Assembly (NCBI GenBank): GCA_045837725.1
Contig: JBEWZL010000084.1
Location: forward strand, 248,001 to 312,000
DNA: 64,000 bases
Reading direction: 5' to 3'
Origin: Vermamoeba vermiformis
Lineage: Eukaryota
Shown in pieces: positions 3,374 through 48,664 of this stretch. The notes under the pieces were generated by a model, which saw only the letters and a program-made list of their open reading frames with translations, did not search any database and was not told the DNA's origin. Position 1 is the first letter of the stretch; the number at the start of each line of letters is the position of its first letter. The translations under genes and the position numbers were made by a program.

Positions 3374-6300
3374 ATGGCTACAGCAACTACCCCTCGAGGA
3401 GAACCGACTGTGGAGGATGTTCTGAAAGACATGGCCTTCGATCCGAAAGGCAGTATCGCTGTTTACTTCAAACATCAAGAAAAAGCCAAATACATGTGCA
3501 TTGATCAATTCGGTAAGTACGAGTTGCTTAATACGCAGTTCTAGTGTCCCGAAAATATTTTAAAAGAAAATAATCGATTTCCCCGACAAATTACAGATGC
3601 GTTAATTTTAATAATTCAATTGAATTAAAATATCTTGGGAGTACCTTCAAAAATTTTATTTCTACTTATTGGCCCTAGGGACATCATTATTCTTAATGTA
3701 TTTTCCTAACGATCTACCTTTGTTGCTATTGTGTTAATCTAACAAATTTAACGGAAAACTAATTCTACTGCATGCTAATATGAAACATTAAGGCAAAATG
3801 ACTATGCGACAAATTCCTAAAGAGTGGGAGAAGTTTACAGTGACCCGCCAAGCCGAGACTCATAAATTCTCTATCAAGGTATGAAACTCGTTACAAACCC
3901 ACGCAAAAAAATTGTTACTATTTGATTATTGATTTTTAATACGTTAATTTTCGGTATTATTTGTCAAATTAGCGACATTTTGGTGGACCGAATTAAAACT
4001 GATCCGTTATTTCGTATTTCTGCGGTTGATTGAATTTCAATAACACGTGCAAACTAATAATTATGCAATATTAACGGTTACTATGAATTACAGAGTCACT
4101 GGAATACCTTTTTGGGCTTAGACATTAAAGATCCGAGCAAACTCGATTTGAAGCCTCAATTAATCTATGAAGCTCAATTATGGACCTTTGAATTGGGCAA
4201 AGATGCTCTTTGGCGCATTAAGAACTGGTATGATTTTATTTCAGCTAATTATTAAATAGCGAATCAACTGCCGATTCCGCGGAAGATCCTACCGACAAAA
4301 ATTGCAATATTTTAAATTGAATTTTAATCAAAAATGCACCGTGCGTCGGCATTAAATATTATAAACGACCGCTGATAAAAATTAATTGATCTTTGTAATC
4401 GAATAATTACAATTTTTTATTACGGTACCTGCAGTTGCTAATTGATTATTATTATATAGCATGAGTGGCAGTTATTTGTGCTACAGAGGCAACAGAGAAT
4501 ACGTCATGTCGGGCGAAGTAAACACAGCACTTCAATGGCGGGTACTCGATATTGCCGCTGTTAATGACGTCACTTCCGACAATATTTTCAGCTTGGTATG
4601 TCTTATAGAATCATTTAAACCTAACGATTATAATGTCACCGGGATCTATTGTTCTAATTATAGAGATCTTCCTATTCTATAAATTTGCAAAGTATAATAG
4701 CTAATCGAAACTTCATCCTTTAGCTCATTTCGGAATTGACCCGCAAAGCTTTTGTTACATTGAATTCGGGTATCATGCACGAGGCCGAGCAATTCCTCGA
4801 CCAGGAGATCAAAGAAAACGAAAGTAAGTCATCACGATTGCTAAGCAATACAGATCCGGCCTAACCTATGACGTTTCAGACAATTGGTTCGCTTGGAAGT
4901 ACAAGGGTTATTTGCGCTTGGGCGCCAAAGATTGGGACAAGGCAATTGAAGCGTTAAGTCAAGCCCTGAGAATTGAAGAGAAGTACGTATTTTTTTTAGC
5001 TTACACGTGTCATTTGCATGTAAAACACGAGCTAACCTTATTGTTTTCAGATGGAGTTTTGCCTGGGCTAAGCTCGGCTACGCGTTCATTAAGCAAAAGA
5101 GATACTACGAGGCTTTGCCGTGCTATGCCAAGGCACTCGAGTACACTCCAGGTGATGTGGCTTCGTTGTACTACAAGGGCAAGGCGCACTTCCACACTCA
5201 AGACTACAACGAGGCTCGCGCTTGTTTCGATAAGGTCCTCGAGCAGCCTCAGAACTTCAAGAACTCGTTCTACTACAAGGGCAAAATGCTCGTGACGGAA
5301 CAAAAGATCTCGATGGCCATTCAATGCTTCAACAAAGCACTCGAGCGCAACCCCAACAAAGTCACCGTACACAACGAGAAGGGTAAGTATTAATATGAAG
5401 ATGTTATTACTGAGACCTATATGGCCTCTGAACCCTGTTGTGTTGCTTGCTCAATCCGTTTTCTATTGTTGAGCGAGTGTCAAACACGGGGAATATTCTT
5501 CGACACTATCAACTTTAACTTGATTTAATCTTGTACGAGGTTATTAACAGTGTGTAGGTTTGGCTCAAATGAAGCTTGGAAGCATCGAGGACGCTTTGGA
5601 TTGCTTTACCAATGCGTTGATTTTGCACCCGAAGGTTCGTTTTTCAGAGGTTAGATCCGCTCTTTGAGCAATTATTTATGCCTTGCTATAGGACACTGCT
5701 ATTTGGAACAACAAAGGTGCTGCATTCCGTGACTTGCGCAAGTACAAGAACGCCATGGAATGCTTCAAGACTGCTATTAAGATCGACGCCAACTGCTTGA
5801 ACTCGTGGGTCAACCTTGGTCTGACGTACGGCACTATCGGCAAGTACGAGAAGGCCATTCAATGCTTGCAAAAGGCACTTGAGATTGCTCCTCAACACGA
5901 AGACGCCCCGAAGTGGACTAAAGAAGTCAAATTGTACTCGGATATTATGGGCAATCACGAGGTGAGTATACTTTTCCTAATTAGGCAAATGCACTTATAA
6001 CCCAATTCTAACGTTTATTTTCATCGTAGGTTTTGGAGCTGCAAAAGAAAGGAGATGATTTCTATTTGCAAAGACAATTTGATAAGGCACTTGAGGTCTA
6101 TTGCAAGGCCAAAGAGACTACCAAGATGGATTCGCAAGATCTGGACATTAAAATTCACGGTAAGCTACAATATCTAACACCAAACATATCCTTATTAATA
6201 ATGCATTATAGAATGTAAATATGCTTTGAAGCAAGTCACGTGGGACATGTTGGATATCTTCCATCAAAATTCAGATCAGACTTACGAGCGGTTGTTAAAG

Positions 6301-7793
6301 ACTTACGACAAAGTCAGCAAGAACAGCTCGAAGACCGTCAAAGTCAACGAGTTTTGGATCTTGAATAAGATCAATATTGGCGCTTTGGCTCCTGATGATA
6401 TCACAGCCTGCAAGCCCAAACAGCTGATCTTCTTGTTGCCGATTATTTTGGGATACATTCGCGATTTCCGTGACGCAGAAAGTCGATTGCCGTTCATCAC
6501 TGCAATTTTGGATAAATTGAAAGAAAGCATCAAGTTGCAGCAATTGATTGTCAGTTTGAACAGATCTAACGTAAGTCCCTACTTTTCACGCTCATAAGCT
6601 CTGATACTAGAGCTCATATCAAACTCATATTATGATATGTTATAGTACTCGGCAGTCTCATAGTATACTAATCTATATTTGTTTAGTTGTTGGTCACTGA
6701 AGTCCAAAAAATCTTCACGGAAGACGAGTGGCAAAAAGAAACGTTCAATTTCTTCGCGGTCAATGCTCAAGGCCAACAACGCACGTTCACTAAGGGCCAA
6801 GTGTTTAACAACTTGCGCATGGCTGGACCACTCTACGGCTACCCAGTCTTCGAGATTAAAGTCGTCAAAGTGTTCGACTCGAAGGCCAAGCCCGTCTTGT
6901 TGGAATACCAGAGCGGAAAATTCTTCCAACCTTTGCGTGCAATTTTCAAGACCGGCGATGACTTGAGAAAAGATTTCTTGGTCGAAGTTATGTTCTTTAT
7001 CTTCAACAAGATCTGGGAGAACTCTGGCTTGAAGAAGAAACCTCACGTCTATCAGTACTTGGTCATTCCTTCCGGCACTAATGCTGGTAAGTTAGTAGAT
7101 CTTGATCTGCGCATCCAGATCTTGAACAATAATTTTAGCTTTGGGATGGATTATTAACGATATATTTATAGGCTTCATTGAGTTCGTGCCTGACTGCACG
7201 CCCGTCAAGAGTTTTGATTGGAACAGAATTGACAGCTTGACTGAGCGTGAAGTGGATACTTTGGTGTCAACAGGTATGTTTGCAACTATTTATTTTTCAC
7301 TGAAACTTGTTATTAACGGCACTTTGCACGTGTAGCTGCTGGAGGCTTCGTTGCTGCATTTATTATGGGCATTAGAGATCGCCATAAGGACAACATGTTG
7401 ATCAAGGACAACACGACCTTCGTGCACATCGACTTTGGCTATTTGTTCAATGAAAAGACCTGGTTCGATGCACCCTCATTGGCTATTCCTGGAGGCTTGA
7501 AAACGAAGCTAGAAAGCAAGGGCAAGTGGGAAGAGTTCAAAAACTTGATGGCGGATGCGTACTTGCTGTTGAGACGCAACTCTGGTATGATCAGCAACAT
7601 CTGTTTGAGGCTGTTCAAGGGCATTTCACCGACTGAAGTGGTGGAAAATCAATTGTACACTGCATTCCAAATGTTTAAGACGAGCGAAGATATGGCCTGG
7701 AAGGACTTCAAGGACTCGATCGATCGCGATCTGACTTCATTGCAGAAGAAGTTGAAGGACGTGGTGCACAAGATTGAGAGTCAAAGCAATTAA
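3374..7793 (+). CDS. Multi-exon PI3K/PI4K-family lipid kinase with N-terminal fascin-like beta-trefoil and TPR array
   Basis: ATG at 3374. Exons 1-4 give beta-trefoil-like repeats (IPKEWEKFTV, SHWNTFLG, EAQLWTF). TPR repeats at 4880-6100 (AWAKLGYAF, SLYYKGKAHF, IWNNKGAAF, SWVNLGLTY). Kinase domain FDSKAKP, FKTGDDLRKD, GFIEFV, MGIRDRHKDN, VHIDFG. Stop at 7791-7793. Confidence 0.88.
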
Positions 7794-8189
7794 TTTATTT
7801 TTAAGGGAGCGAACTGTATTTATTTGTCAAGTAAAATTGATTTTTGAAAAACTCGAAACCGCACAACTGTACAGTTTTTGATTACCATTGAGAGGCTTCC
7901 AAATTGATACGGCATATCAAAGCTGTATGTAATTATTCAACGTGCAGTCACTACGGCCCAGGATGCACTCGTGCTAATGTCCGTTCTGTGACAATCTACC
8001 TGATCTGTTTTGTCTGAGAGTTAATCACCAAAGGTTCGCTTGCAATCAACGTTTTCTTCAGAATTAATACGGACAATGATACCTATTGGTAAACAACGCA
8101 TCAGATTAAGACCTGGGATCTATTTCAAGGTAATGATTTTTAGTTCGCGTATGTACAAATAAACAAGCTATGTGAAGTAATGTCAGTTT

Positions 8190-10416
8190 CTAGCTAGATA
8201 CTCTAGAATCTGAACTTTGGGTGAACAAGTCGTGGCCAATTGAAAGGAAATCTTTGTTGGATGCAGATGAGGTCGGATCCTCCGCGGCATTTTGGTTTGA
8301 TGTGCAGTTGACGGCGAGAGAGACCTCTGCTATAGAAGGGGATCCAACTGAAGGCTCATTCGGCGGCGAGTTTGGCTGCAGATCTGGTGGCAGAGGGCGC
8401 TTGAAAAAATTGGCTAAAAAAGGCAGTAACGGCTGGTCGTTAAGAAGTTGATTATATTGATGCCAGAATAGTCGAGCAAGGAAGTAGTAAGAGTTAGAGA
8501 ACATATGAGCTATCTATACGTAATTTTAAAATTAGAACAAAGGATCAGATCCGAACAAAAAAAACGTACGTTTTGGAGCATTTCAACTTGCTTCGTTAGC
8601 TTCAAGAACGGTAAGATTGAGAAGACGTATATATAGGGGAATATGAAGTGCGGCATCTGAGCTATTAATGTTTTGGCAACGTTGATAATGTAGTGGCAAC
8701 ATTGGATCGCACTTTCGAGCTGATCGCAGGCGTTAAAAGCGAACACTCCGGCCACTTGAATAGACAAGCCAATAATATCCCTAATTAATAACATGAGAAT
8801 ATGAATCGGGTATTGGTTTAAAGGGTACTTGCCTTAACGTGTTTTCGGTTATTAATGAGGCTTGTTGGATCAGATCCGATAAGTATTTGTGAACCTCTGT
8901 TTGGTTAAGCTTAGTTCCGTCGCGCATACATGATGCTCCCACAGAGACTACCTACAGAGGTAACAAGTAATTAGCGTCCGAGATTTTCGAGATACAAAAA
9001 TTTTCAGTAACTTTCCTAATTTGGAAAGTTTGCTACAAAAATAGCACTCTGATACTACGCCACTTACCGCTCTAGCTTTATCTCTAAGATCTTGCGCGAG
9101 CTTTGATGAGCTTGTTGTGCCAAAATTGAACTCAGAAATCTTCGGAAATTGTGGATCTGATCGGCGGTCTTTAACTCTAGTAGAAGGGATGCTGAATGTT
9201 AATATATGAAGTAGATGGTCCTCAGTCGAGTCTCCGTCAATCTCTTCTTGGTCTTGTTTAGCTTTGTTCACAGGTAAGGCGGAAACTTTTCCGAGATCCG
9301 TTCTCGTCGCTCGAAGGCCGCTCAATCGCTTCCAAACACTAGCACTTTGTTTCCAATCGCCTATACTAAGTGCATAGAATGCTAGATTAAATAACAAGCT
9401 CATTTCTTCGTTGAACAACAACTCGTCTCCGAGTTCGTATTGTGTTGCGAACTCCCTATTTGTACGTAAAGAATAATACTTAGTATGCATATGATTTTAA
9501 GAACGAAACATAATTTGCACTTACGATGCCTCTTTCATGCATTTTTGGGCTGTTTGAATGTCGTTATTGATTAGCGCTCCGCACCCGATGACTGACATCA
9601 TAAGGGCATTCTTCAGCAGATCTAGGTGACAGAACAAATTTAGTGGAGGCTATAGCATTATACTTATATTAAATGAAATAAAGACATTATTTTGAGCTAT
9701 TTCTTAGCATTTGAGGTATTACGTACCATCATCTTGGAGCAGCGTATCGAGATCGGGATATGGAACGACAGCGCCTGTCATGGCACCTATCGTTTGGGAA
9801 TACCAATAGACATATGTTGAAAGATGAGGAATCGAGAAGAATTTTGCGATCTTATTGCGCACAAAGGCAATTTTCTAGCCAGATGAATTAGGTGCGGAGT
9901 AATTATCATATTTGAAGCGTTACTAATTCCGTTAATTTCCTTTAATTAACAGATAATTGCACGAGTATTAATCGGAAGTACTTACCGCTTGAATTCGATC
10001 CAGTTCTCGCATTTTTTGTTGCTGATCTGCCTTAAGACTAGTTTCGTATTGTTCGTTACACATTATTTTTATCTTCAACGTTTCATTTTGCTTAGTCATT
10101 TGTTCTAAGAAATAATAATAATAAGTTAATACTTCAATAAAGCGAGTTTTTGATGCATCCACCGCACCGAACACGTCTTCTTCTGCCATATTTGGAAACA
10201 CGCAAGTTTCATTAGCCTCGAGACATCGATCGCACGGACAAACGCCATTGCCTAGAATTAATATAGTATTAGCGGAACTATCCCTGATCGATGCGTGCTT
10301 ATTTAAGGTCCCGCTGACATGCCACACTTACATTTTTTATGATGAATTTTGCATCGTTCGCAAGCACGAAGTACGACAGAAATCCCTCCGCGTTTTTTAC
10401 TTACGCGTTTTTGCAT
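8190..10416 (-). CDS. Zn(II)2Cys6 binuclear-cluster transcription factor, multi-exon (3' end uncertain)
   Basis: Removing the intron at about 10252-10331 gives CERC-KIHHKK-C-NGVCP-CDRC-LEANET-C (Cx2Cx6Cx5Cx2Cx6C) after a basic N-terminus. A coiled coil and a middle-homology-like region follow. Confidence 0.85.
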
Positions 10417-11481
10417 TTCACTTGTGTTTTCTACTTTTTTAGAGTTTAGTAAAAATAATCTTTGTGTTTGTGGCCAACAAACTTCATTTTTTCTATCTAT
10501 AGAAGGTGATCGAGATGTTATCTTATCCAAATATGGTAATAACGACCGGCAGAAAATTAAATTTCCCAATGTATAATTAAAGTAGGAAATTTTGTAGTTA
10601 AAAACATCGTCAACCTGCGGCTATGTCAAACTGGTTCTAATAGACTTAATAGTACTATTTATAGCACTATTAAGACCAGTTACAATCGTTCGCTTGGGTT
10701 TGAAGGTATTTTAAGTTACGCGGATAATTTCCCTGCCACGCGCCTCAAACGTTTTAAACCTCTTTCTGTGAACGTAAAACTGAAATGAAAGCGAGAGATA
10801 CAACGAATAAGTGATATTTAAGGGTCTATATGCTATATGCTTCATATTGATCGCTTTTTAGTACCTCTTTGAAAAAGTGGTGCCATGTGTTCATCGGCCG
10901 ATAGACACGTGCACAAATTTAATGTTCAAAATACCATTCTAAAGGGTTATAGATAGGTATAGTCGCTCAATTATTATAGAAAATAGGCGAATCGATGTTT
11001 GAAGTTGCAGAAATGCAATTCGTTTCGAAAGTAAATTTGGCAACCAGATCTATTTTTGGAATTAAAAGACTTCGCTACCTGAGAATAGGCGGGCAATAAA
11101 GGACGCTTCTAGGGCAATAATATCGCTCAATTTACTTCGGAGAGCACAAATTTCTAAAAAAAGGCATCATTAAGTAAGCGCTATTTTAGGAGCTGGGTTT
11201 AGCTATTTTGGGCGACTTACCTGGTTTCATGGGAGATAGTAATCCTGAAAGTAATCCATTTCGTTTTGCCTAGCATCGCATTAATATTTCAGATTTTTAT
11301 GAGATATCTCCTGCGAACCAGATCTATTGTACGGGAAGCGCCAAAAAGTTCTAATAGTAGATCCGTTGTTAGTAATGGTGGCAATGTTTTATTATGTTAA
11401 CCGTACTTACTATTGCATCCATAGGCATCGCCTAAAGTAGCAGATCTGGGCGTATTTGTGGTTTAATAATCCACGCTGGAT

Positions 11482-12919
11482 CTAACTCGACTTATTCTCG
11501 ATAACGAGGTTAGCAACAATAGGGCAATGGTCACTTGCGGGTCTATCGCGTTCGCCGTTCTCGAGCACTTTGTAATCCTGCACGGTAATTCCTTTGCTCA
11601 CAAGAATGTAGTCAATCAGCATCGTATAAGCGTAGTTAAGTAGCTTAATATAGATATTGTTGAAACCAACAAATGTGGCTTGGGTGCTATTAGCGCCGGT
11701 ATTGACTAATGATAGGCCTAGATGTCGGATCAATTAGGCATCATTAATGACCCGTAAAGTGAGCTCAACATACCCCACTTCATCGCACAATTTGGGTTCG
11801 TGACTTCAGCTATTAGACCTTCGTGTGGCGTAGAATTAAAATCACCGGTTAAGATGCACGGGAGACCATTGGATATGGCTCGCATTTTTGATAATATCAA
11901 GTGCAAGCCGTTCTTGCGTGCCTCGAATGATTCGTAGTCCAGATGCGTGTTGAACACGAAGAATGGAGGTGCATTTCTATTGAATAGTCAGTATTTGTTA
12001 ATCATATCATATGAATTACTTACTTAGTTTTAGATCTGAGTTTGACCCACGAGCAGATCCTCGGCAAAGGAGCTTTCCAGGCACGAGATCCAGCAGTGTA
12101 CGGCGTCTCTGATAACCAAAACACGCCACACCCTTCTTGCTATATTAAACTAACGTTAAATATAATCATATCAAGGTATCGATAACTTACACTGAACAGA
12201 TCTGCTCGATAAAATATCGGCGAAGCTTCACCGCGTTGTTGACCGTCATCGCGGCCCCACGAAACATAATCAAATGCAGAGCCCACCCTTTGCTTAACAT
12301 ACTAAAGGCTTGCGTAAGTTTGAATTTCATTACGGTGATTAGCACTTACCGCTAGCTGATGGTGCAAGGGCTCTTGAAGGCCAAAAATGTCGCATCCTTT
12401 AACAATTTCTGAAACCTGCCTCAAAAATTATTAAATATTATAATTTTATAATGCTATGCATACTATGTCTTTTCGATGCTCCCAAGAATGTTTTCCGTCC
12501 TCTGGAGTGTCATAACGAATATTAAAACTCATGACCTACACAAAAATTCAATTTGATTATTAAAAATAAATAAATTAATTTACCTTCACCGCCAATGATT
12601 CTGGATAATTATACGTTTCTTTTCTACGATCAAATGCTTCAATAATATTCATGTCGCCATTATTTTCCAAAATTCTATTGTCTTCACTTTCCCAATGTAG
12701 GCTTCCTGATTGATCCTTAATGACAAACTTATATTCGATTCTTGTTGCTGGCAATTTAAATGCTTGAGCGGTTTCCCACCAATTCAACTGAGACCACTTC
12801 AGCTTGTTATCATTTGTGGGCATCCAGTTACCAAGTGCTGGAGTATTGCCGACTACGTGTACTGTTTGGCCGTAGCTTGTCTCGCAGTACACTCGAAAAA
12901 GCACATTTGTGGTCGTCAT
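11482..12919 (-). CDS. CBM20 starch-binding domain fused to an exonuclease/endonuclease/phosphatase (EEP) domain
   Basis: N-terminal CBM20 (TSYGQTVHVVGNTPALGNW...IEYKF...WE...NR). Spliced EEP motifs VMSFNIRYD, DIFGLQE, GRDDG, FWLSETP, PRICSW, NTHLD, LTGDFN, IDYI, SDHCP. Confidence 0.88.
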
Positions 12920-13054
12920 GGTAAATTCGAACAAAAATATGTTTTATGCAGATACTTGCCATTTTTGGAAGTGTATCGGCTCTAGAAGCTCGGGAAGGTT
13001 GAATACTTTATTAAACATATTTAATACAAGTTGTCGCTTATTAAAAGAGCGTCT

Positions 13055-36732: not shown

Positions 36733-36740
36733 TATTTATA
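36733..36740 (-). promoter_or_regulatory. Probable TATA box (TATAAATA) of the NTF2/SnoaL gene
   Basis: TATAAATA on the minus strand about 55 bp upstream of ATG 36678. Confidence 0.5.
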
Positions 36741-38663: not shown

Positions 38664-38746
38664 TAGATGGTTCTGTAGTGCTGTTAGTTGTGGTTGCTGA
38701 GTGACGTGTGGTCAAAACTTTGGCAAGTTCCATCTACTCTCCGCTC

Positions 38747-39927
38747 ATGAGCGCAACTACTCAGCCTGAGTTTTTAATCTACGGCGCCAATGGTTATCTT
38801 GGTTCACACATCGTAACCGTATTGCGCGCTCAGGCGAAGACGTTCGAGATTGGAAAGGCACGCATTGAAAACAAAGCATCAGTAGAAGCAGAAATTGATT
38901 CTTTGCGTCCAAAATATGTTATTTGTGCTGCAGGATTAGCCGGCAAACCCAATGTGGTAAGACACGTTCATGGCCATTTTAAAAGATTTTTTAAATTTCT
39001 GGGCTGATGAGCTTTGATAATAATTATTTTGCTATAATACTACACGCATAATATTATACGTCATTTTAATGCGATCAGAATTGGTTTGAAGATCCGAAGA
39101 ACAAGCCCGAAGCTGTTCGCATTAATGTACTTGCCCAACTCAACGTTGCTGATGCTTGCTACACGCGCAACTTGCACTGCACGTTGTTGGGTACTGGTAT
39201 GATGTATAATTATGACGCTCAGCATCCATTGGAAGGAGGCAAGCCATTCAAAGTAAGTCTCATCTGCAGTGTTTACTGACCCGAATGCACACTCCGAGTA
39301 CTCACCTCATCTGTAGGAAGATGACCCTGCAAACTACACAGGCCTATATTACGTCGAGCTAAGACTATTATTAGAACAACTACTAAAGGTAAGCCATTCG
39401 TGCGTGTAGATGTGTTGTTGCTAATTAGGGTCCGAGTCAGGCTTACACGAACGTGCTTAACTTACGTGTGCTCTTCCCAATTTCGAGTGATTTTAGCAAC
39501 AAGAGCCTCAATGGCAAGTTAATCACCTTCAAGCAAGTCGTCAGTGTTCGTAACTCGTTTACCGTCGTGGATTCGCTTTGGCCGGTAGGTGTTTTGCGAA
39601 TGGTTCGGTCTTTTGCTAGTTATTTAATATGATTCTCATTAGTATATACCTCTTATGGCCGAGAAGAACATTACGGGGACGTTCAATTTTACTAATCCAG
39701 GAGCTATGTCTCACGGTGACATATTGAAGTTGTACAAGGAACACGTTGATCCGAACTTCGAATGGACCGAGATTACCAAAGAGGAGTTTGAGCGCGTAAA
39801 TAACATGACGAGGCCTAACGCTGAATTGGACGCGTCAAAATTGCTGCAATACTTCCCGGACATTAAAAATGTACGAGATGCAGTCGCGGATGTGATGAAG
39901 AAGGGCAAGGAAGTGCTGAAGAAGTAA
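38747..39927 (+). CDS. NDP-4-keto-6-deoxyglucose 3,5-epimerase/4-reductase (NRS/ER-like, rhamnose synthesis)
   Basis: FLIYGANGYLG, VICAAGLAGKPNVNWFE, NVLAQLNVADAC, GTGMMYNYDAQHP, LNLRVLFPI, TGTFNFTNPG and RPNAELDASKL. Confidence 0.88.
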
Positions 39928-40253
39928 CTTGCTAAGAATATCAAAGCTGGTCTGCGTCATTTCTTCTACGACGCTTTCACAAGTGCACAGCCAGCAGCGC
40001 GTGCTACATATTTGACCAAAGTTTGACCGAACAAAATTCGCACGGAAACTGAAAAAGTAAAATTAATTTAGCAAACAACCCAGAGGAATCACCACACTAA
40101 ATAAACGATTGTTATAATCGTAATTTTTGTTGGCTTGTAGAAGATTCGGATATCCTACCTATCTTCCGTCTTTCATCTGAAAGATTAGCAAATCAGCACA
40201 TCTATCGAGTTTGCTCAAGCCAAAAGCAATCAATTACGTCAATTTATATAAAA

Positions 40254-43200
40254 ATGAGCACGGAACACGAGGATTCGGAAGTAAACTTACCAGTGGTACG
40301 TCAATTTCACTTCAGAAAATAATAACAAATCTGAATTTCTCCTAGTTAATTAACTGGTCTTGTATTCATATATAATGTCGATTAATAATATTGTACAGGA
40401 AAATGTTCTTTTGCCCGTTGCAGGAGAGCCCCAAAAGAAGATTCCGGCCGAAATTAATTATGACGAAGACATTGCTCTCAAACCATTTTTAACAGGTAAA
40501 TTCTATTTGCAATAATAGTGATATAGTTATGATATGCATATTTTCGCCGATGGTAGCATTTTCATGATTACGGCCGACATCGGCATGTCACTGCCATAAT
40601 AATTTTAAATTTTATTATTCAGTTTATTTTATATTCTGTCACGTCCATAAATCAATGATATTAATAAAATCATGTAGAGAGGCTATTATGGGAGCTACGA
40701 GTCTTGGAATCGAAAAAAACGCCCGATCTAAAGCTCTGGTGTGTACCAATTCTTAATATACCAGTAAATACTAAAAACTAACATTAAATTAATAGGTTCG
40801 CTAGTATTAATGGCTGGTCTGAATCAGTTCACTTTTTGTTGTCAAATCCGGATGCCACCCAAAAACCCAATGTAAATTATTCTCAAGGGTAAGTTTATAA
40901 TAATATTTCGATTTTATCCAATGCATTGATATAATTTTCATATTATTAAGACTTAATTGTATGATTTATGTATGACAGACCGAATTTTTGAATTGGTGTA
41001 AATAGATCTCGTTTGAAATTGCTTATTTTAACACTTTATTTAGTGGTTATTCTTGTTTATATCGAGCAGCACAATATGCACATTCAGAAGTCGTCGAATT
41101 GTTATTGCGTCATGGTGCTGATGTTAATATGGCTGGCAGGTATGTCCCAACCATCTCATACTTGTTTAACGTTGAATAATATTTATAGTAATATTTAATA
41201 ATTGTATAATATAACTTTAATTCAATTATTTTCGATATTTCGCCGATCTGATGATAGACACGAATTAATTAATTTGATATTTTATTGTGGCTTGGTCATA
41301 CGGCTATTATAATTATTAGTTATACATCATATATATTACTGGCATAATGTTGTAGTACTTACCATTCATATTAATATGATCTTGTAGCGATGGATCTACA
41401 CCGCTGTACATCTCCGCTCAAGAAGGACATTTTGAAGTCGTAAAAGTGTTACTGAAGTACAATGCAAAAGCACACGCGCCATTTAGTGCAGGATACACAC
41501 CGCTATATATAGCCTCGCAAAAGGTACGAAATTGATCTAACTTTTAATTCGCCTAACGAAATATTCATTCAATGAAAAATGCAATTTAAACAAAATATCG
41601 ATTGATCGGAGAATAATTGCAATATTATAATCAATTACATGGATTTTGTGCAGTAATTGTCAAAATGGAATTTAATCCGAGCAAATGCCATGAAATTCCA
41701 AACCTATGATACAAATGTTATTCCGTGGTGTGCTCGATATTAATACCATTATTGTTATTTTATAGGGATATCAAGACATAGTGTCGCTATTATTGGATCA
41801 CGGAGCTAACGTGGACGCTGCGTGCAGCTCAGGATCTACACCTTTGTATATTGCTTCTCAGAAGGGATATTCCGAAGTACGTATTATAATCTAATATATT
41901 GCATCTATTATAATATTATATTTAAATACGAGCGATATAGATGATTAAATCGTCACGTGATAATTTCTCAATTCGAGTTGGATCGGATCTTTTCGGGTCC
42001 TAATATTTTTTCCTTTTTAGGTAGTCAAAGTGTTATTAAAGCGAGGAGCAGAGATCGAGGCCTTATTTAAAAATAACTGGACGCCATTATCAATAGCGGC
42101 TAGTAATGGTCACCACAAGATTGTCAAAATGCTCTTGAACTACGGCGCTAAAGCTGACGTTTGCGACTATACACCATTGTATAAAGCTTGTCAAAAGGGT
42201 CACTTAGAGGTAATTAATCTTTTCATAGCATATTCATATTAATCCCGAAACATGAAACCAAAGTTATACCCGAGTAGATCGACCTGATCTGATCCATTTT
42301 TTTGCAGGTGGTTAAAACTCTCGTTAAGCACGGTGCCAATATTCGAGCTACAGGCAAGGACGGCTCAACACCACTGTACATTTGCGCGCAAGAAGGACAC
42401 ACGGCCATTGTAAAATACTTAATCAAAGCTGCAGCCGACGTCAACGCGAAATGGAACAGCGGATACACGCCGCTATATATAGCCGCACAAAAAGGTCACA
42501 AAGAGATTGTTGCTCTGTTAATAGAACACGGGGCTGATATCGAGGCCGCATCCGACGTCGGATCGACCCCACTATATATTGCTGCTCAGAAAGGCAATAC
42601 AGAAGTCGTAGAATACCTAATAAGGAAAAAAGCGAATGTCGAAGCCAAGTTTAAGGTATGTCTTTGTTCTATATAATGCTTAAATGACTTATAATCGTGT
42701 TTTTAGGGCTGCTACACCCCATTGTATATTGCGTGTCAGAACGGGTGGTTGCCCATTGTAAAATTATTATTGAATGCTGGAGCCAATATTGAAGGTAAGA
42801 TAGAACATACATTCACATAATAAGAGTTATTTATCGTGTTGCAAATCAAGTTTTCAAACGGATCTAGTGAAAATTGTAAGGGTGGATCTGACGTTTTTTT
42901 TTGACAGCTCCATGCAGCCAAGGCTCGACCCCGTTGTATATAGCATGCCAGAAGGGTCACAAAGACGTCGTTGAGTACTTATTGCGCCGTGGAGCCAATC
43001 CGAATGCCAAGTTCAAGAACAAGTTCACACCGCTGAGTATCGCCACGCAACACAGACATCAAAACGTCGCGGCGTTGTTACGCGAGTACTTGGCCTTGCG
43101 AGCCTCAGACCCACTAAGCCCGAACAATTCGGCCTTGAATTGTTCCGGATCTACTGGTGCAATGTCGCAAGGGCCCGTTGTTGGATCTGCACCTGGGGAT

Positions 43201-43416
43201 CTGTCGGCACTCATGCACGGCTTGACACTGTCATCGAGCGAGAGTGGTGCGGAGAACCCTCCAATGAACGAAGGATTAAACAACAATAATGTAGATGATG
43301 ATAATAATATGGGAGCTCAAAATGTGAATAATGCTAGTACCAGCGGCGGATCTCGCAGCGGACGAAGACATCGAAATAATAATAACAATAACGGACCCGA
43401 TGATGGATACGCTTAG
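40254..43416 (+). CDS. Canonical ankyrin-repeat protein (about 13 repeats) with Asn-rich tail
   Basis: Repeated G(S/Y)TPLYIA(A/C)QKGHxxVVxxLLxxGA across GT-AG exons; frame continuous from ATG 40254. Confidence 0.9.
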
Positions 43417-43521
43417 TAATATTATAAGAGTAGTACTAAGCGGATTCAGAAAAAACATTAATTTGTTTGTAATTTATTTACTTGTAGTAAAAATGTTGTA
43501 ATTACACGAAATTTAAGTTTT

Positions 43522-43932
43522 CTATTCGAATTTAATAGAAGTTACATTAGTGGCAACGAGCACATTGACGTATTCAAGCGTCTTTTCTTTAATTAGCTGA
43601 GCATTTTCTTGCATGTACTTCTTGAATAAAGTCGGATTAAACGTCGCTAGTTGTTGGAATAAACTAGGAAATAACATGAATAATTTCAAATTGAATTGTT
43701 TTCGCGTGTCTTCTGGCGCATTTCTGAAAGGGTTATGGCCGTCTTTATAGACGATTGATAAAAGCAAATTGAGCTCTTCGACGGACGACAGTTTCGCTTT
43801 GCCTTCGCTAAATGACCGAGCAGCATATAATAATACAAATGCTGGTCTTGAGGAGTTTTGAAATGCGTCGTAAGTTTTTCCAAATGAAGAGTACTCTTCG
43901 TTTTGTGGAAATGGCAGCTTGTTAATGCTCAT
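43522..43932 (-). CDS. Hypothetical intronless protein (about 136 aa)
   Basis: Open ORF from ATG 43932 (MSINKLP) with protein-like composition; no recognisable domain. Confidence 0.55.
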   Translation of the reverse strand: MSINKLPFPQNEEYSSFGKTYDAFQNSSRPAFVLLYAARSFSEGKAKLSSVEELNLLLSIVYKDGHNPFRNAPEDTRKQFNLKLFMLFPSLFQQLATFNPTLFKKYMQENAQLIKEKTLEYVNVLVATNVTSIKFE

Positions 43933-44202
43933 GTTTCGTGACGAATAATCAATTTTGGAGGCGCTGAGGAACAATAACCGAACCAGAAGTCAGCGGAATC
44001 GAAGTAACAAACGAATTTTCTTGCGTCAACTTTCGAGCTGGCAAAATTTGCTATGAAAGTAAAGCGCATGCGAATTTCATCTTAAATATAGTATTTATAG
44101 CATTACTAAGATTCTGTCACCAATCCTATTATTATTATTCGAATAAAAACGTCCAAGTCACAATTGAGCGGTTTATATGCCGGTTAATTCAAAAATCATC
44201 CC

Positions 44203-45189
44203 TTAAATGTCATTTTCAGGTACGAATATTGTTGTGTTCGTGTATGCACCTCGAGGCAGTTGGCTTGCCATGACAACAAGTTGCCGAAACTGTTCACAAA
44301 AGTAATCAGCGACGTCAACGGTCTGATCCAATGGCCTGCCATATAATAGTGATATCACAGAGTAACATAAGGGGTAGTATTCTTCTTGTGATTCATCGCC
44401 GTTGTGTTTGTGAGTGAACAGATCGCACCACTGGTTTGTCGAGTAGCTCCATACTGAGGCTTTGAAGTAGTATGGATTTGTTACCAATGGCTTAATCTGA
44501 GTTCTGATGACAATAGGCGCTGCTGAGGGCCCAATGAATATGAACTCTAGTGACGCAGGTAGTCCTGCGAATGGATCTTCATTTCGTGGCTGCTGAGCAC
44601 GACGGCCACGAGTTAGCTGCCTCTCTTTTAGTCTCTTGATATATTCTAAGTGTCTGGCCTCTTCTTGCTCGTGCTGCGTGGTTGATCTGTCGTAAATTGT
44701 AACTTTTGAGCCAATTGCGTCTTCTTTGCTGGGATAGATTCGATCGATATTTACTGCGTTTGGTAGTAATGATACCCTATGATAGTATCTCGACTTCCAA
44801 GGTGATTTCGTGCTCAAAACCGGTTCTAGAAAGTCGCTGCATCCGGAAAATAACGATTTTTGACTTTCATTTTTTAATTCGCCAATTAATTCTTCATCAT
44901 TTTCGTTTTGTTGCAAATATTGCAATTCATCAGCAGTAATAAAATTACTCTTCCAGCGCCACACGTAAAGTTTCTGGTAGCTTACATCCAAACTAAAATT
45001 GGAAAAAGGCTTCGCCACCATATTTAATTGCGGAAGCGATTTCATATCGCAAAAATATTCAATGGATCTCCATATGTCCATAACACTGAGTGGTTGGACG
45101 TCGGTCGATTGATTCATAGATTCGTTTCCAGTACGGAGCTTTTTCGCAAGGGGCTGAGAAGGATTTTCGTCTTCAGTTTTTCTCTTCAT
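44203..45189 (-). CDS. Intronless hypothetical protein with bipartite NLS and degenerate F-box-like segment
   Basis: 328-aa ORF with MKRK...AKKLR and LSVMDIWRSIEYFCDMKSLPQLNMVAKPF. Confidence 0.7.
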   Translation of the reverse strand: MKRKTEDENPSQPLAKKLRTGNESMNQSTDVQPLSVMDIWRSIEYFCDMKSLPQLNMVAKPFSNFSLDVSYQKLYVWRWKSNFITADELQYLQQNENDEELIGELKNESQKSLFSGCSDFLEPVLSTKSPWKSRYYHRVSLLPNAVNIDRIYPSKEDAIGSKVTIYDRSTTQHEQEEARHLEYIKRLKERQLTRGRRAQQPRNEDPFAGLPASLEFIFIGPSAAPIVIRTQIKPLVTNPYYFKASVWSYSTNQWCDLFTHKHNGDESQEEYYPLCYSVISLLYGRPLDQTVDVADYFCEQFRQLVVMASQLPRGAYTNTTIFVPENDI

Positions 45190-45336
45190 TGTGTTATGAC
45201 AAAATGGTCGTGGGTTTACACGTTTTGGTGGTGATCTATCAAAAAAATAAGATTTTCTTCTAATTTATTTTCCTGTTCCTGAACGAACAACCTTTTCGGT
45301 CGAACAATTTATTCCTCTGACTTACAACGTTTAAAT

Positions 45337-46548
45337 TTACCATGCTAAAAGTACGACAAGTTGCGCCGTAATGATAGCCACTGCTAAAACTGCCTCAACA
45401 CATCTGACACTTCTGGCAGCCACCGAAACAATTTTGGCACTCGAGGTTGAAGCGTCAGGCGATCCGGTCGTGGTGGTAACAGGAGTTCCTTTTGGTGCAA
45501 TTGGGAAGGCAATTGGCGTTGTGACAGGACTGGCAACAGGCGGGGCCTTGGGTGCGGTGACTGGAACTGCAACGGGACTGGCAACTGGTGTAGCGACGGG
45601 AGGTGCTTTGGGCACTGTTACGGGAGCGGCTATTGGTGCTGCCACCGGAGTGGCCTTTGGAGCTGCAACAGGTGTAGCGATTGGCACGGCGACTGGAGGA
45701 GCCTTAGGAGCTGTAACAGGAGCAGCGACTGGTGCTGCAATAGGAGAGGACACTGGTACTGCTACTGGGGTGGCCTTTGGAGCTGCCACAGGTGTAGCGA
45801 TTGGAACCGCAACGGGAGGTGCTTTCGGAGCTGTAACAGGGGCAACGACAGGCGTCGCGACAGGAGTGGCTTTAGGTGCTGCAACGGGAACGGCGACAGG
45901 AGGCGCCTTCGGAGCTGTGACAGGAGCTGTGACCGGTGTGGCAACAGGAGGAGCCTTTGGAGTTGTGACAGGAGTGGCGAGGGGAGCAGCGACGGGAGGT
46001 GCCTTTGGAGCAGCGACAGGAGCTGCGGTAGGAGTTGCGGGGATTGGTGGCAGTGTATGTGGAGTTGCAGTATAAGGACAAGCAATGCAGTTAGTATCTC
46101 CTTGCGCTGCGTATTCACCTGAAGTGACTCGAGCAGCACAATCGTTGTAGCAGAGCTGACAGCACGAATAACATTTCTTTTGTTCAGGAGGGGACAGCGG
46201 GGCTATTGTTCGCTTGCAGTCAGTGTCGCTAGTACACGATTGAAGGACCATGCATGGGTAAGTATAGTCAACATTTTCGAAGCCTCCCCAGCCTTGACAA
46301 AAACTCGTGAGATCCAGATTTCGTTTTGGACAGAGTAGTTGCCAAGTGTTGAACACCTGCGAGGCACAAGCAGTGATTGAAACATCTACTGGTCCATATG
46401 CACAGACTTTTGCAGGAATGGCGTACGTGTTGGCAGTTGAATTACCGCACAGGGAATTACGGATCCCGGTTGTTGGTTGACACGTTCGATCTGCTGCTAT
46501 AACTGCACTAATAAATAGTAGCGTGACTAATAATACTATTTCGCGCAT
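45337..46548 (-). CDS. Secreted Cys-rich domain plus Pro/Ala/Thr/Val/Lys mucin-like stalk and probable GPI-anchor signal
   Basis: Signal peptide MREIVLLVTLLFISAVIA, a Cys-rich N-domain, APKAPPVA/TPVA repeats, then SSA and a hydrophobic C-terminus. Confidence 0.82.
   Translation of the reverse strand: MREIVLLVTLLFISAVIAADRTCQPTTGIRNSLCGNSTANTYAIPAKVCAYGPVDVSITACASQVFNTWQLLCPKRNLDLTSFCQGWGGFENVDYTYPCMVLQSCTSDTDCKRTIAPLSPPEQKKCYSCCQLCYNDCAARVTSGEYAAQGDTNCIACPYTATPHTLPPIPATPTAAPVAAPKAPPVAAPLATPVTTPKAPPVATPVTAPVTAPKAPPVAVPVAAPKATPVATPVVAPVTAPKAPPVAVPIATPVAAPKATPVAVPVSSPIAAPVAAPVTAPKAPPVAVPIATPVAAPKATPVAAPIAAPVTVPKAPPVATPVASPVAVPVTAPKAPPVASPVTTPIAFPIAPKGTPVTTTTGSPDASTSSAKIVSVAARSVRCVEAVLAVAIITAQLVVLLAW
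45470..46035 (-). repeat. Coding tandem repeat of 12-bp (tetrapeptide xP[V/I/K]x) units
   Basis: Repeated APVA/TPVT/APKA/PPVA peptides with synonymous divergence. Confidence 0.85.
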
Positions 46549-47075
46549 ATTTGTATCTTGATTCGTGGTGATAGCGACGGATCCTGAAACTACACTGATT
46601 TTACCTGAACTGTCCCAGTTTTTAGCCACCTGCAACCGAATCTTCACCGTCTCATTCGAAAATCAACCTGTAGATTTTGTGTACTATTAGACAACAGACT
46701 AACCAATGACGGGTAATTTACCTTGAAATTGGTATCAGATCTTGCTGGCAGATCTTTGTTCGTCTTTGAACGGTTTGTGCGCGTGGAAACTCGTGCCTTG
46801 GAGTTATCACAGGCCTCGGCTAATTGATATCGACCTTAGACTTTTTGTGACGAGACTTGTGTCGCACATTTGAAGCATGACATGGGCAATTGGAGCACAA
46901 AATCTCGCCTCGCATTCTTTAGTACGCTCTATGTTACTCTCGGGTTAGAAACACTTGTAATGTGGTGACAACTACATCAACGGCAATATTTGTGCATCTA
47001 GAATACTTTAACTTGAGATCTAAAACGGGGTTAACGGATGCGGATTCAGCAAAAACTTGAGAATAATTTATATAT

Positions 47076-48642
47076 CTATTCAATTTGATATCCTACATTA
47101 TAAATGCCCACGGAGTCGTTAGCAACGTCGTCATAATCGGCCCAATCCTCGTGCAATTCAACTTGAAATTTCTTCTCGCTCTTTACTCCTTGACAAGTCC
47201 ATCCATTAGCTGGTTGAAATTCAATGGGCACTGTTCCTCGGCATTCGAACACGATGACTGGAACGAATCTGCCAAAAAAGGTAAATTTAGGTTAATACGA
47301 TGTTGCGCTAGTAACGTATTTAAGAAATTAATATTAATGCAATTAATATTGGACAACTGTTGTGTGGTAATATAAAACTTTAATAACCAAAGACGTTTCG
47401 TTACTAAAAATAGAAGGATCTGGATCCCAATCCATTTATTCGAATGAAAATAATCGTAGGTGATAATAATGAACGATAATATTATAACAAAAGATAAAAA
47501 AAAAGACCGCGCGGTCTAACTCAACCCTCACAAGTATAGAACTCAGAAAAATTGGCCTATTTCTCAGCTAACCGACAGTCTTCCTGCTCAATGTCGCTAT
47601 TTAAACACCAAAACTTGTCTTTTGCGCTCAGTTATGGGAATCTGCAGCTATATCATACTTTTATGCGAGTATTATTAGGCTAATTACAAAATAAATAAAA
47701 TACTTTTAAAGTTTAAGGCGCGATCTAGATCCGTTTCGTAGTTATTGAGTTGTCATAGCTTTGAGGGATTATTTTTAAACATATTTAATTTATGTAACCA
47801 TATTTCTAATTATTAGCTGAATCTAAATGCTAAAAGTCATATTTACCGAACTCGCTGATCGGATCTTTGTAATAGATATTTGAATTTCGCTCATAAATTT
47901 TGCTAATATTTATAGACGCCCTAGTTTAATATATTCGCTAATATTTAGCCACAAGACTACCCACTAACATTTTAAATAATTTTTGAAAATTCAAAATTAT
48001 TAATTAATTGACTGCGCGACTTGGTATGGTCATTTAGTCTTCTCAAAACTACTAAAATTCATAATTATTAATTTTTACTTACTTTCCGTTATCTTCAGGA
48101 GTCAAAGCTCGGCAAGCTTTCGTCGAAACAACATCCACCGTCATATCTCGCTTGCAAAACTTGCACTTCATAATTAAATTGGCTAAAAAGGATTATTAAT
48201 ATGGGTTTAATAGGCAGCCAGGAATAAGGGCCCAACAGCTTCGTCGAGAAAATTTTTGAGCAGATTTGCAAAACTTACTAGTGCCTCGACCGTGAGGGTT
48301 TTCCAATTGCTCTTGACCATTCACATCGACAAAATTTTCTTTGACTTCATTACAGTGCGAGCACTTGAACTACGAAGACCACAGGGTTAATTGCTTCCGA
48401 CATCCAGAGAAAATTATCAGACCCAGTCCAAATACCTTAATTTTCCAACTACACAGTGCTTAATTAATATCGTATAAATATTTTATTACATATCTAATAT
48501 TTTTATGCTTACTCAATGCTGGCGTCGGGATGCAGATTGGTCACGTTCTCAAGATCTGCCTTCAGTGATAAAGTGAATTGAACCTGATAAGTAGAATTAA
48601 TATAAAATAATTGTAGCCTCATTATTGCAATTACATTACCAT
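47076..48642 (-). CDS. CZIB: CXXC motif-containing zinc-binding protein (DUF866/C1orf123 family)
   Basis: ATG-only exon 48640-48642, then VQFTLSLKADLENVTNL. A 13-nt microexon, FKCSHCNE, GRGTTNLIMKCKFCKR, KFVPVIVFECRG and DWADYDDVANDSVGI. Confidence 0.9.
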
Positions 48643-48664
48643 TGTTGCCTGTGTTGTCTGTGAA

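What the first reader, a model, noticed from the sequence alone, without database searches (positions are those of the whole stretch)
4852..47866. AGATCCG/CGGATCT (GATC-core) motif strongly enriched in AT-rich introns
Seen: the 7-mer occurs in introns at 4852, 5653, 8547, 8872, 13397, 14970, 15136, 15511, 16687, 26089, 27271, 31517, 34398, 37684, 41984, 42859, 47727 and 47860. Many further RGATCY variants and tandem GATC clusters occur (7097-7122, 42277-42296, 47416-47428). My rough composition-based expectation for intron DNA here is about one copy or fewer. Both orientations occur relative to transcription, with CGGAUCU more common. In several introns the GATC core overlaps the branch point as GATCTRAC (34398 on the minus strand; also 26960, 29362, 42884, 62609). 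About a dozen exonic copies also exist. Inference: a lineage-specific extended branch or splicing signal, or a DNA-level linker signal such as a preferred ApT 6mA context or nucleosome-positioning factor site.
Basis: partly seen in the sequence, partly recalled or inferred. Interest (0 to 1): 0.7.

Follow-up and report, generated by a model that had tools for sequence, protein, structure and literature searches.

The report
GATC word marks nucleosome junctions genome-wide
The short DNA word noticed in introns is not a splicing signal: in this amoeba-like genome it recurs about every 141 to 146 bases in introns, exons and spacers alike, alternating with TAT-rich stretches, most likely as the imprint of unusually tightly packed nucleosomes whose junctions carry methylated adenines.

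Summary
In detail: 36 copies against about 5 expected, all 18 coordinates exact. But the 7-mer is one spelling of the palindrome YRGATCYR (two overlapping (C/T)(A/G)GAT half-sites around an ApT). It is enriched in introns (7.8x), intergenic DNA (3.6x) and all three coding frames (2.4-3.3x over synonymous shuffles). It is not a splicing signal: 161 of 189 intronic copies miss the branch point, U2 is canonical, and there is no hairpin covariation. The main result is new: GATC words and TAT/TATA alternate in a DNA-level wave of 141-142 bp (138-146 by compartment). It is seen in 69 of 70 sampled segments, confirmed by whole-genome pair counts (704 versus 133), phased to start codons, and lost in spliced coordinates. 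The 10.2-bp AA/TT bending signal centres on the TAT phase, so the motif marks the junction between nucleosomes. The genome encodes AMT1 and AMT2/5-type adenine methyltransferases, whose known best (SATS) and worst (TAT) contexts largely match the two phases. Best reading: an imprint of linker 6mA on arrays spaced at or below the 147-bp core length. Neither nucleosomes nor 6mA were measured here.

The parts
1..64000 (.). DNA-level wave of about 141 bp: GATC/CGGAT/A-tract phase (inferred nucleosome junction) alternating with TAT/TATA phase (inferred core)
   Evidence: Best period 138-145 bp in each of the eight 8-kb blocks of the window; 27 of 36 7-mer copies lie on the GATC side of the phase predicted from at least 71 bp away
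3028..3034 (.).
4129..4135 (.). AGATCCG, CDS
4852..4858 (.). AGATCCG in predicted + intron 4824-4879
5653..5659 (.). AGATCCG in predicted + intron 5635-5691
8547..8553 (.). AGATCCG in predicted - intron
8872..8878 (.). AGATCCG, exonic by my model (reader: intron; unchecked by RNA)
9294..9300 (.). AGATCCG, CDS
11359..11365 (.).
13397..13403 (.). AGATCCG in predicted - intron
14970..14976 (.). AGATCCG in RNA-confirmed - intron (joint 14945-15002)
15136..15142 (.). AGATCCG in RNA-confirmed - intron (joint 15122-15192)
15511..15517 (.). AGATCCG in - intron (RNA joint 15383-15571)
16687..16693 (.). CGGATCT in - intron (RNA joint 16612-16720)
18800..18806 (.). AGATCCG, intergenic by model
26089..26095 (.). 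AGATCCG in predicted + intron
26960..26968 (+). AGATCTAAC overlapping a predicted branch point (incidental overlap)
27271..27277 (.). CGGATCT in predicted + intron
28805..28811 (.). CGGATCT, non-coding (model fuses two genes here)
29363..29371 (+). AGATCTGAC overlapping a predicted branch point
30054..30060 (.). AGATCCG, CDS
31243..31249 (.). CGGATCT, CDS
31517..31523 (.). AGATCCG in predicted - intron
34398..34404 (.). AGATCCG in predicted - intron, reads CGGATCTGAC on the branch point
35737..35743 (.). CGGATCT, CDS
36907..36913 (.). CGGATCT, intergenic
37684..37690 (.). AGATCCG, probably in a short - intron of a gene the model missed
37879..37885 (.). AGATCCG, probably exonic in the same missed gene
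39090..39096 (.). AGATCCG, CDS
41984..41990 (.). CGGATCT in predicted + intron
42277..42296 (.). cluster of three GATC words; GATC pairs 4-6 bp apart are in excess in the sample
42859..42865 (.). CGGATCT in predicted + intron
42884..42892 (+). GGATCTGAC overlapping a predicted branch point
43146..43152 (.). CGGATCT, CDS
43347..43353 (.). CGGATCT, CDS
47416..47428 (.). GGATCTGGATCC tandem pair
47727..47733 (.). AGATCCG, non-coding (probably a long - intron of a missed gene)
47860..47866 (.). CGGATCT, non-coding, 133 bp from the copy at 47727
60077..60083 (.). CGGATCT, CDS
60531..60537 (.). AGATCCG, CDS
61283..61289 (.). CGGATCT, intergenic by model (probably in an unmodelled ORF)
62477..62483 (.). 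AGATCCG, CDS
62608..62616 (+). AGATCTAAC overlapping a predicted branch point
7097..7122 (.). cluster AGATCT / GATC / AGATCT in predicted intron 7087-7171

Best explanation
SHOWN: AGATCCG/CGGATCT is one form of YRGATCYR, built from a strand-wise half-site CGGAT > CAGAT ~ TGGAT whose ApT must not be followed by A. These words, with A-tracts and CG, occupy one phase of a genome-wide DNA wave of 141-142 bp (about 138-140 in spacers and gene starts, 143-146 in distal gene bodies and long exons). TAT/TATA occupies the opposite phase. INFERRED (strongly, about 0.8): the wave is the imprint of regularly phased nucleosome arrays, with the TAT phase at the dyad and the GATC word at the junction between neighbouring cores. 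INFERRED (about 0.55): the writer of the sequence preference is AMT1-type symmetric ApT adenine methylation, which works on linker DNA, prefers G/C-flanked ApT and shuns TAT. Over time, good substrates built up at junctions and poor ones in cores, through weak selection for a nucleosome-repelling mark or through a methylation-linked mutation or repair bias. Introns show it most because they are least constrained.
For: Enrichment in every compartment and all frames. Period 141.9 bp (95% 140.8-142.9) for GATC and 141.0 (140.5-141.5) for TAT, coherent over about 8 periods. Antiphase in 69 of 70 segments and 36 of 37 held-out loci (some overlap or are paralogous). Amplitude 6.74 vs -0.03+-0.11 in block shuffles. 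Whole-genome YRGATCYR pairs: 704 at 136-148 bp vs 133 at 65-77 bp; 542 at 414-426 vs 422 at 456-468, windows symmetric about 3x147, p=1e-4. Signal kept across introns in genomic distance (2.20+-0.26), lost in spliced distance (-0.39+-0.16). With phase predicted from at least 71 bp away, non-coding YRGATCYR runs from 0.0-0.2x to 2.2-2.5x of its mean, TATA the reverse (0.19-2.37x), and A6 tracts follow GATC. The 10.2-bp AA/TT signal is 5.97+-0.86 for pairs centred on the TAT phase vs -0.55+-0.93 on the GATC phase (x1e-3). Phase is tied to start codons. Flanks of ApT explain more phase variance (R2 0.089) than flanks of TA, CG or GC (0.048, 0.029, 0.036); base -1 is G +0.24, T -0.29. L082 matches Tetrahymena MTA1-type chains at E 5e-24 vs METTL3 3e-6; L080 is an MT-A70 with ZZ fingers, the AMT2/5 hallmark. 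Literature: SATS most and TAT least methylated in AMT1 species (PMC12695648); 6mA in linkers (PMC7145601, PMC5714169); AT-rich dyads with 6mA about 70 bp away in Chlamydomonas (PMC12146615); a methylated GATC disfavours nucleosome assembly in vitro (PMC6245762). GATC coupling is stronger in the first 1 kb of genes (0.58-0.67 vs 0.31-0.42).
Against: No methylation or nucleosome map was available. CATG, also a SATS word, is not junction-enriched (-0.08) and CATC/GATG only weakly (+0.07). In ciliates AMT1 has no consensus beyond ApT (PMC5714169, PMC6245762). PMC12695648 finds that 6mA does not generally shape base composition and that the amoebozoan Acanthamoeba lacks periodic 6mA. The imprint runs through whole gene bodies, whereas 6mA is usually limited to about 1 kb after the start; stronger 5' coupling would follow from tighter phasing alone. 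A repeat under 147 bp is hard to square with canonical H3/H4/H2A/H2B and two H1 genes. Within single long exons the period is 145-146.5 bp, with intervals reaching 149-153, so it cannot be told from 147 there. GC-rich long exons carry almost no signal (amplitude 0.01-0.05 vs 0.38-0.48 in AT-richer ones). AMT6/7, p1 and p2 were not searched for.
Confidence: 0.55

Rival explanations
1. A sequence-specific protein binds GATC at the junctions and sets or reads nucleosome spacing. Candidates are the four CX2CX18CX2C GATA fingers found, above all L009, which joins a RAMA domain to a GATA finger. The TAT phase would then be an independent bendability signal.
For: GATA fingers at L007-L010; L009 has RAMA (Pfam E 5.9e-7 and 1.9e-4 on two exons, each under the curated cut-off) plus GATA. 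A fungal GATA factor, WC-2C, binds GATC (PMC12638772, passage). The RAMA protein MPND binds DNA and histones (PMC9963953, abstract). Flanks behave like an independent-position matrix.
Against: G is at least as good as A before GATC (GGATCC 0.79, AGATCC 0.69), and CGGATG and CGGATT half-sites are also junction-phased, unlike WGAT-type GATA sites (recalled). Sites are not concentrated in promoters. 0 of 3 intronic GATC sites are kept in an 81%-identical relative (very small sample). The motif and TAT form one ApT-centred scale.
Confidence: 0.2
2. Chromatin-dependent mutation or repair bias, or selection on DNA mechanics alone, with no role for 6mA: flexible TA steps collect in cores, while stiff A-tracts and GATC/CG words collect at junctions, as in the A/T waves of other microbial eukaryotes.
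For: About-150-bp A/T waves with AT-rich dyads are widespread, also in fungi with little DNA modification (PMC12146615). The signal is strongest where coding constraint seems weakest and nearly absent in GC-rich long exons. Sites turn over.
Against: The G+C wave is small (about +-2-3%) next to the 12-fold TATA and over-10-fold YRGATCYR swings. TA steps outside TAT are barely phased (GTAC +0.02, TTAA -0.18, TATA -0.70). An 8-bp word with a ranked half-site points to an enzyme or binding protein.
Confidence: 0.2
3. Extended branch-point or other intronic splicing signal acting on RNA.
For: Highest fold enrichment in introns; 28 copies overlap called branch points; U2 bases next to GUAGUA could pair with CAGAU.
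Against: 161 of 189 copies are off the branch point; no excess of GAT before branch CT(R)A (p=0.62); both strands used; enriched in CDS and spacers; no hairpin covariation; intron positions are not periodic; the pattern is lost in spliced coordinates.
Confidence: 0.03
4. Artefact of sequencing, assembly or repeats.
For: Only one assembly was measured at scale; the one related metagenome contig (3 kb, L105) was too short to show the wave.
Against: Spread over 61 of 70 segments with best period 136-148; tied to start codons; present in intact reading frames whose exons are matched mostly at 95% or better by RNA contigs of other studies.
Confidence: 0.02

Closest known systems
   Same: Nucleosome-sized waves written in the genome sequence, phased to gene starts, AT-richer phase at the dyad, 6mA half a period away in Chlamydomonas.
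   Different: CAPs are bulk A/T waves of about 150 bp. Here the wave is word-specific (YRGATCYR vs TAT), with only a small G+C swing, runs through whole genes, and measures 141-142 bp. The paper's main text has no GATC, TAT or amoeba; the term search of its two held supplements hit only Dictyostelium purpureum, with zero feature scores.
AMT1/MTA1 symmetric ApT 6mA in linker DNA (ciliates, Chlamydomonas, early-diverging fungi; PMC7145601, PMC5714169, PMC12695648)
   Same: AMT1 and an AMT2/5-type gene are present; the phases rank ApT contexts with GATC at the top and TAT at the bottom; TAT depletion near 6mA is known in early fungi.
   Different: Methylation was not measured; CATG is not favoured; the surveyed species showed no general effect of 6mA on composition, and Acanthamoeba showed no periodic 6mA; the Tetrahymena period is about 200 bp.
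CG-enriched, DNMT5-methylated linkers of prasinophyte algae (Huff and Zilberman 2014; not held, recalled; summarised in PMC12695648)
   Same: A methyltransferase target word concentrated in linkers along gene bodies, leaving a periodic mark in the sequence itself.
   Different: The word is adenine-centred; CG is only weakly phased here (amplitude 0.06 vs GATC); the period is shorter.
Very short nucleosome repeats: Paramecium 151 bp, Plasmodium 155, S. pombe 156 (PMC8997360)
   Same: Near-zero linker length in a compact genome.
   Different: The sequence period here is 5-13 bp shorter still, and those three species are said to lack H1 whereas this genome has H1 genes. A 130-140-bp 6mA period near Chlamydomonas start sites is recalled from Fu et al. 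2015 but could not be checked.
HIP1, the highly iterated GATC-core palindrome of cyanobacteria (recalled, no paper read)
   Same: GATC-centred palindrome over-represented in coding and non-coding DNA in all frames, linked to an adenine methyltransferase.
   Different: Degenerate rather than fixed; no Dam-family (PF02086) gene found; tied to a chromatin repeat.

Membership tests
Extended branch-point signal | Fixed position at or next to the branch adenine | tested here: not met
   28 of 189 copies at the branch point; GAT before CT(R)A 55/994 vs 53/867 elsewhere
Extended branch-point signal | Sense-strand and intron specificity | tested here: not met
   43 vs 33 off-branch; enriched in CDS and intergenic DNA
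Extended branch-point signal | Matching change in U2 branch-pairing sequence | tested here: not met
   GTGTAGTATCTG unchanged in both U2 types
Intronic RNA hairpin | Complementary flanks, G-U allowed and A-C not | tested here: not met
   Pairs beyond the 8-mer at chance level (e.g. 44 vs 46.7); A-C and G-T both above expectation next to GATC
Nucleosome-array imprint (CAP-like) | Nucleosome-sized periodicity in genomic DNA | tested here: met
   141-142 bp overall, 138-146 by compartment
Nucleosome-array imprint (CAP-like) | Phasing to gene starts | tested here: met
   TAT peaks about +133 then every 139 bp, GATC about +62 then every 140 bp from predicted ATG, 197 genes
Nucleosome-array imprint (CAP-like) | About-10-bp rotational signal centred on one phase | tested here: met
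   AA/TT 10.2-bp amplitude 5.97+-0.86 vs -0.55+-0.93
Nucleosome-array imprint (CAP-like) | Agreement with mapped nucleosomes | not testable with these tools
   No MNase or chemical map available
AMT1-dependent linker 6mA | AMT1 orthologue with DPPW motif | tested here: met
   L082: E 5e-24 to MTA1-type chains vs 3e-6 to METTL3 on one 77-aa exon; no tree built
AMT1-dependent linker 6mA | Partners AMT6/7, p1, p2 | not tested
   The MT-A70 search returned only two genes; no partner-specific search was run
AMT1-dependent linker 6mA | Context ranking SATS > VATB > TAT | tested here: inconclusive
   GATC top and TATA bottom, but CATG -0.08
AMT1-dependent linker 6mA | Symmetric 6mA at ApT in linkers | not testable with these tools
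   Needs raw long-read signal or DpnI/DpnII digestion
GATA-finger binding site | Candidate GATC-type GATA fingers encoded | tested here: met
   L007-L010
GATA-finger binding site | W before GAT (recalled), promoter concentration, site conservation | tested here: not met
   G as good as A; 0.65/kb in the 250 bp before ATG vs 1.12/kb in introns; 0 of 3 intronic GATC kept in L105
HIP1-type iterated palindrome | Cognate Dam-family methyltransferase | tested here: not met
   PF02086: no match in G000, control rang in 6 of 14 genomes; absence in an exon-by-exon search is not proof

The most novel reading that the evidence does not exclude
This amoebozoan packs its whole genome in nucleosome arrays with a true repeat of about 141 bp, shorter than the 147-bp core and about 10 bp below the shortest repeat found in my searches, despite canonical core histones and H1. 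Neighbouring cores unwrap their ends to expose one 8-bp junction word, YRGATCYR, that AMT1 methylates on both strands and a RAMA-GATA protein may read. It would be an adenine counterpart of the CG-linker system of prasinophytes, readable from sequence alone, even at synonymous codon sites.
Probability: 0.3. Interest if true: 0.88.

Novelty: new variant of a known kind. Interest (0 to 1): 0.72.

Why it matters
It turns a motif count into a sequence-only map of predicted nucleosome positions for a whole genome, and makes two open questions directly testable. First, whether adenine methylation can shape genome sequence: the broad survey PMC12695648 concluded that it generally does not. Second, how short a nucleosome repeat can be: the sequence period (138-146 bp) is at or below the core length and below the 151 bp of Paramecium, in a cell that has H1. 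One MNase ladder and one long-read run would settle both. It also means codon choice, branch-point spelling and motif counts in this genome are biased by chromatin phase.

Tried and rejected
Rfam and tRNA scans of the window: nothing. RNA hairpin reading of the palindrome: no covariation. Periodic introns as the cause: donors, acceptors, centres and the intron mask show no peak near 141 bp. First-intron or promoter enhancer: density is lowest in first introns (0.48/kb). Clustering by gene class: chi2/df only 1.1-1.2. Dam-family methylase: none found. Variant histones that would wrap less DNA: H3 aligns to ordinary H3.1 chains with two one-residue gaps in the tail; H4, H2A and H2B look ordinary by eye. 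Cross-species control: the single metagenome scan gave 19 AMT1 loci, mostly 1-3 kb; I tested the 6 longest. L120 (16 kb) and L107 (8 kb) gave a TAT peak at 150 bp without the GATC antiphase, and L105, L106, L116 and L118 were too short, so this is inconclusive. RNA reads came from diverged strains and could not place transcription starts. Earlier scan notes: nothing on this genome; one unrelated viral palindrome. Huff and Zilberman 2014 and Fu et al. 2015 are not held. An earlier count gave the RNA check as 14 of 15; the recount is 12 of 13.

Full report
Setting. The window is G000:C84:248001-312000 of a 43.3-Mb, 309-contig, intron-rich eukaryote. Its major actin scores best against PDB chains 4EFH and 1NLV/3CHW, above animal actins; that these are Acanthamoeba and Dictyostelium actins is recalled, so 'amoebozoan' is an inference. 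I analysed the window plus 69 stretches of G000 (750,686 bp in all, 1.7% of the genome) with a self-trained gene finder. It reproduces 12 of the 13 distinct RNA joints displayed. It misses or fuses some genes, so 'intergenic' contains some genic DNA.

The observation. All 18 coordinates are exact; there are 36 copies against 5.0 expected at Markov order 2 and 34.4 at order 5, so the excess belongs to shorter words within the 7-mer. Predicted window introns hold 16 copies against 0.86 expected. In other parts of the genome the enriched family is YRGATCYR. It is 189 vs 24.2 in introns, 3.6-fold in intergenic DNA and 258 vs 79+-10 or 107+-10 in CDS under two synonymous shuffles, raised in all three frames. 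Control palindromes (CATG, TCGA, AGCT, ACGT) are at 0.87-1.08 in the same shuffles.

Not a splicing signal. 28 of 189 intronic copies overlap the called branch point, but GAT precedes CT(R)A no more often there than elsewhere (55 of 994 vs 53 of 867, p=0.62). The sense bias is weak off the branch point (43 vs 33) and reversed in CDS (41 vs 65). U2 is canonical in the branch-pairing region. Flanks do not covary as a hairpin would.

What is really there. GATC-to-GATC distances oscillate with peaks near 140, 280, 425, 565, 705 and 845 bp. Among all 4-mers TATA, ATAT and GATC are the most periodic; introns themselves are not. Bootstrap periods are 141.9 (140.8-142.9) for GATC and 141.0 (140.5-141.5) for TAT. 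GATC and TAT are in antiphase in 69 of 70 segments, and the wave is seen for CDS-CDS, intron-intron and intergenic pairs. 61 of 70 segments have their own best period at 136-148 bp, and the mean amplitude is 6.74 against -0.03+-0.11 in 20 block shuffles. In 37 loci not used for training, the TAT term is positive in 37 and the cross term negative in 36; some of these loci overlap or are paralogues. Whole-genome counts of YRGATCYR pairs are 704 at 136-148 bp and 133 at 65-77 bp, and 542 at 414-426 vs 422 at 456-468 bp, windows placed symmetrically about 3x147 (p=1e-4). For exon pairs separated by introns the wave holds in genomic distance (2.20+-0.26) and vanishes in spliced distance (-0.39+-0.16), so it is a property of DNA.

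The motif and the wave. With phase predicted only from sequence at least 71 bp away, 79% of 574 YRGATCYR sites and 27 of the window's 36 7-mers fall on the GATC side. In the better-phased half of non-coding DNA, YRGATCYR runs from 0.0-0.2x its mean in the TAT phase to 2.2-2.5x in the GATC phase; TATA runs the other way (2.37x to 0.19x); A6 tracts and CG follow GATC. The unit is a half-site: CGG, CAG and TGG before AT rank highest whether C, G or T follows, and a following A cancels the effect. The palindrome is two such half-sites sharing one ApT.

Which phase is which. The 10.2-bp AA/TT signal typical of wrapped DNA is present for base pairs centred on the TAT phase (5.97+-0.86 x1e-3) and absent on the GATC phase (-0.55+-0.93); WW-SS shows the same trend (12.7 vs 4.2). 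A-tracts, which nucleosomes disfavour (established knowledge), flank RGATCY at about 6-20 bp. The wave is phased to predicted start codons, and promoter A-tracts and CACGTG lie near -80, in the GATC phase. AT-rich dyads are the common pattern in microbial eukaryotes, with 6mA about 70 bp away in Chlamydomonas (PMC12146615). I infer TAT phase = core and GATC word = junction. True transcription starts were not available, so the promoter evidence alone would be ambiguous.

How short. The period varies by compartment: 137-140 bp intergenic, 139-141 in the first kb of genes, 142-144 beyond 2 kb, and 144-148 within single exons of 500 bp or more, with intervals reaching 149-153. So it is at or below the 147-bp core everywhere, clearly below it outside long exons. 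The shortest repeats named in PMC8997360 are 151 (Paramecium), 155 and 156 bp, in species without H1. Here H3 is ordinary, H4, H2A and H2B look ordinary, and two H1 genes are present. Whether sequence period equals true repeat was not calibrated on a species with a measured repeat. A 130-140-bp 6mA period in Chlamydomonas is recalled, not verified. GC-rich long exons carry almost no wave while AT-richer ones carry the strongest, and 0 of 3 intronic GATC sites survive in an 81%-identical relative. Both suggest a weak, diffuse force rather than fixed conserved sites.

Mechanism. The genome encodes an AMT1-like enzyme (L082) and an MT-A70 with ZZ fingers (L080), the AMT2/5 hallmark (PMC12695648), and no Dam-family match. 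In AMT1 species SATS is the most and TAT the least methylated context, 6mA lies in linkers, and a methylated GATC disfavours nucleosome assembly in vitro. The phase ranking of NATN words here has GATC at +0.45 and TATA at -0.70, and is ApT-centred. Against this: CATG is not favoured; ciliate 6mA has no wider consensus; the survey found no general effect of 6mA on composition and no periodic 6mA in Acanthamoeba; and in Oxytricha the effect of 6mA on nucleosomes in vivo is subtle. The main rival is a protein reader: L009 joins a RAMA domain (under cut-off on each exon) to a GATA finger, and a fungal GATA factor binds GATC. The two could act together.

Novelty. Sequence waves tied to nucleosomes are known (CAPs; prasinophyte CG linkers, recalled). 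My ten literature searches found no report of a GATC/TAT antiphase wave, of such a wave in an amoebozoan, or of a genome-wide repeat under 147 bp. The library lacks most subscription papers. Data S1 of PMC12146615, which I only term-searched, may list species with periods under 147 bp by its peak-calling method. What I saw of each paper: PMC12695648, passages and part 3 of 12; PMC12146615, parts 1-4 of 11, passages, and a term search of two supplements; PMC8997360, PMC7145601, PMC5714169, PMC6245762, PMC12485025, PMC12638772, 10.1101/475384 and 10.64898/2026.05.21.726589, passages; PMC9963953, abstract and outline; Huff and Zilberman 2014, Fu et al. 2015 and HIP1, nothing (recalled).

Verdict. 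Observation confirmed; splicing reading rejected; DNA-level junction reading supported and extended. New variant of a known kind; interest 0.72.

Noticed in passing
window + intron 21842-21895, 55813-55862, 63703-63799; many in L012-L014: A second palindrome, TGACACGTGTCA/TGACACCTGTCA, is strongly enriched in introns (GACACGTG 52 vs 0.9) and 7-11x in CDS over synonymous shuffles. It clusters in GC-rich genes, is absent from first introns and scarce in the first 500 bp, and is only weakly phased (0.22+-0.09). It resembles TALE-homeodomain dimer sites (recalled).
   Followed up: partly
L004-L006 (G000:C202, C49): A second, divergent U2 snRNA type (4 copies, about 57 bits, 219 nt) beside three near-canonical copies; the branch-pairing region is unchanged.
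   Followed up: partly
L009 (G000:C216:248603-251668): Gene joining a RAMA domain, a GATA zinc finger and a long coiled-coil-like tail.
   Followed up: partly
L098-L101: Cytosine methyltransferase genes: a DNMT1-like one, one with chromodomain-like repeats by eye, and a DNMT2-like one. CG is weakly junction-phased.
   Followed up: no
L087-L091: Near-identical partial histone-fold matches (profile 37-122) repeated on five contigs, outside predicted genes; possibly carried by a repeat.
   Followed up: no
L126:137-547: H2A with an acidic tail ending in SQAY (H2A.X-like end) and H3 with F41/K42; the effect on DNA-end wrapping is unknown.
   Followed up: no
750-kb sample: The commonest called branch-point 7-mer is TATTAAT (150), ahead of TACTAAT (81) and TACTAAC (55); acceptors lean slightly to the TAT phase (-0.13+-0.03).
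   Followed up: no
G000, whole genome: Large actin family: 123 PF00022 matches, at least six identical-scoring intronless copies and many divergent ones.
   Followed up: no
L120, L107: Another AMT1-bearing eukaryote from metagenomes shows a TAT peak at 150 bp in 16 and 8 kb, too little to judge.
   Followed up: partly
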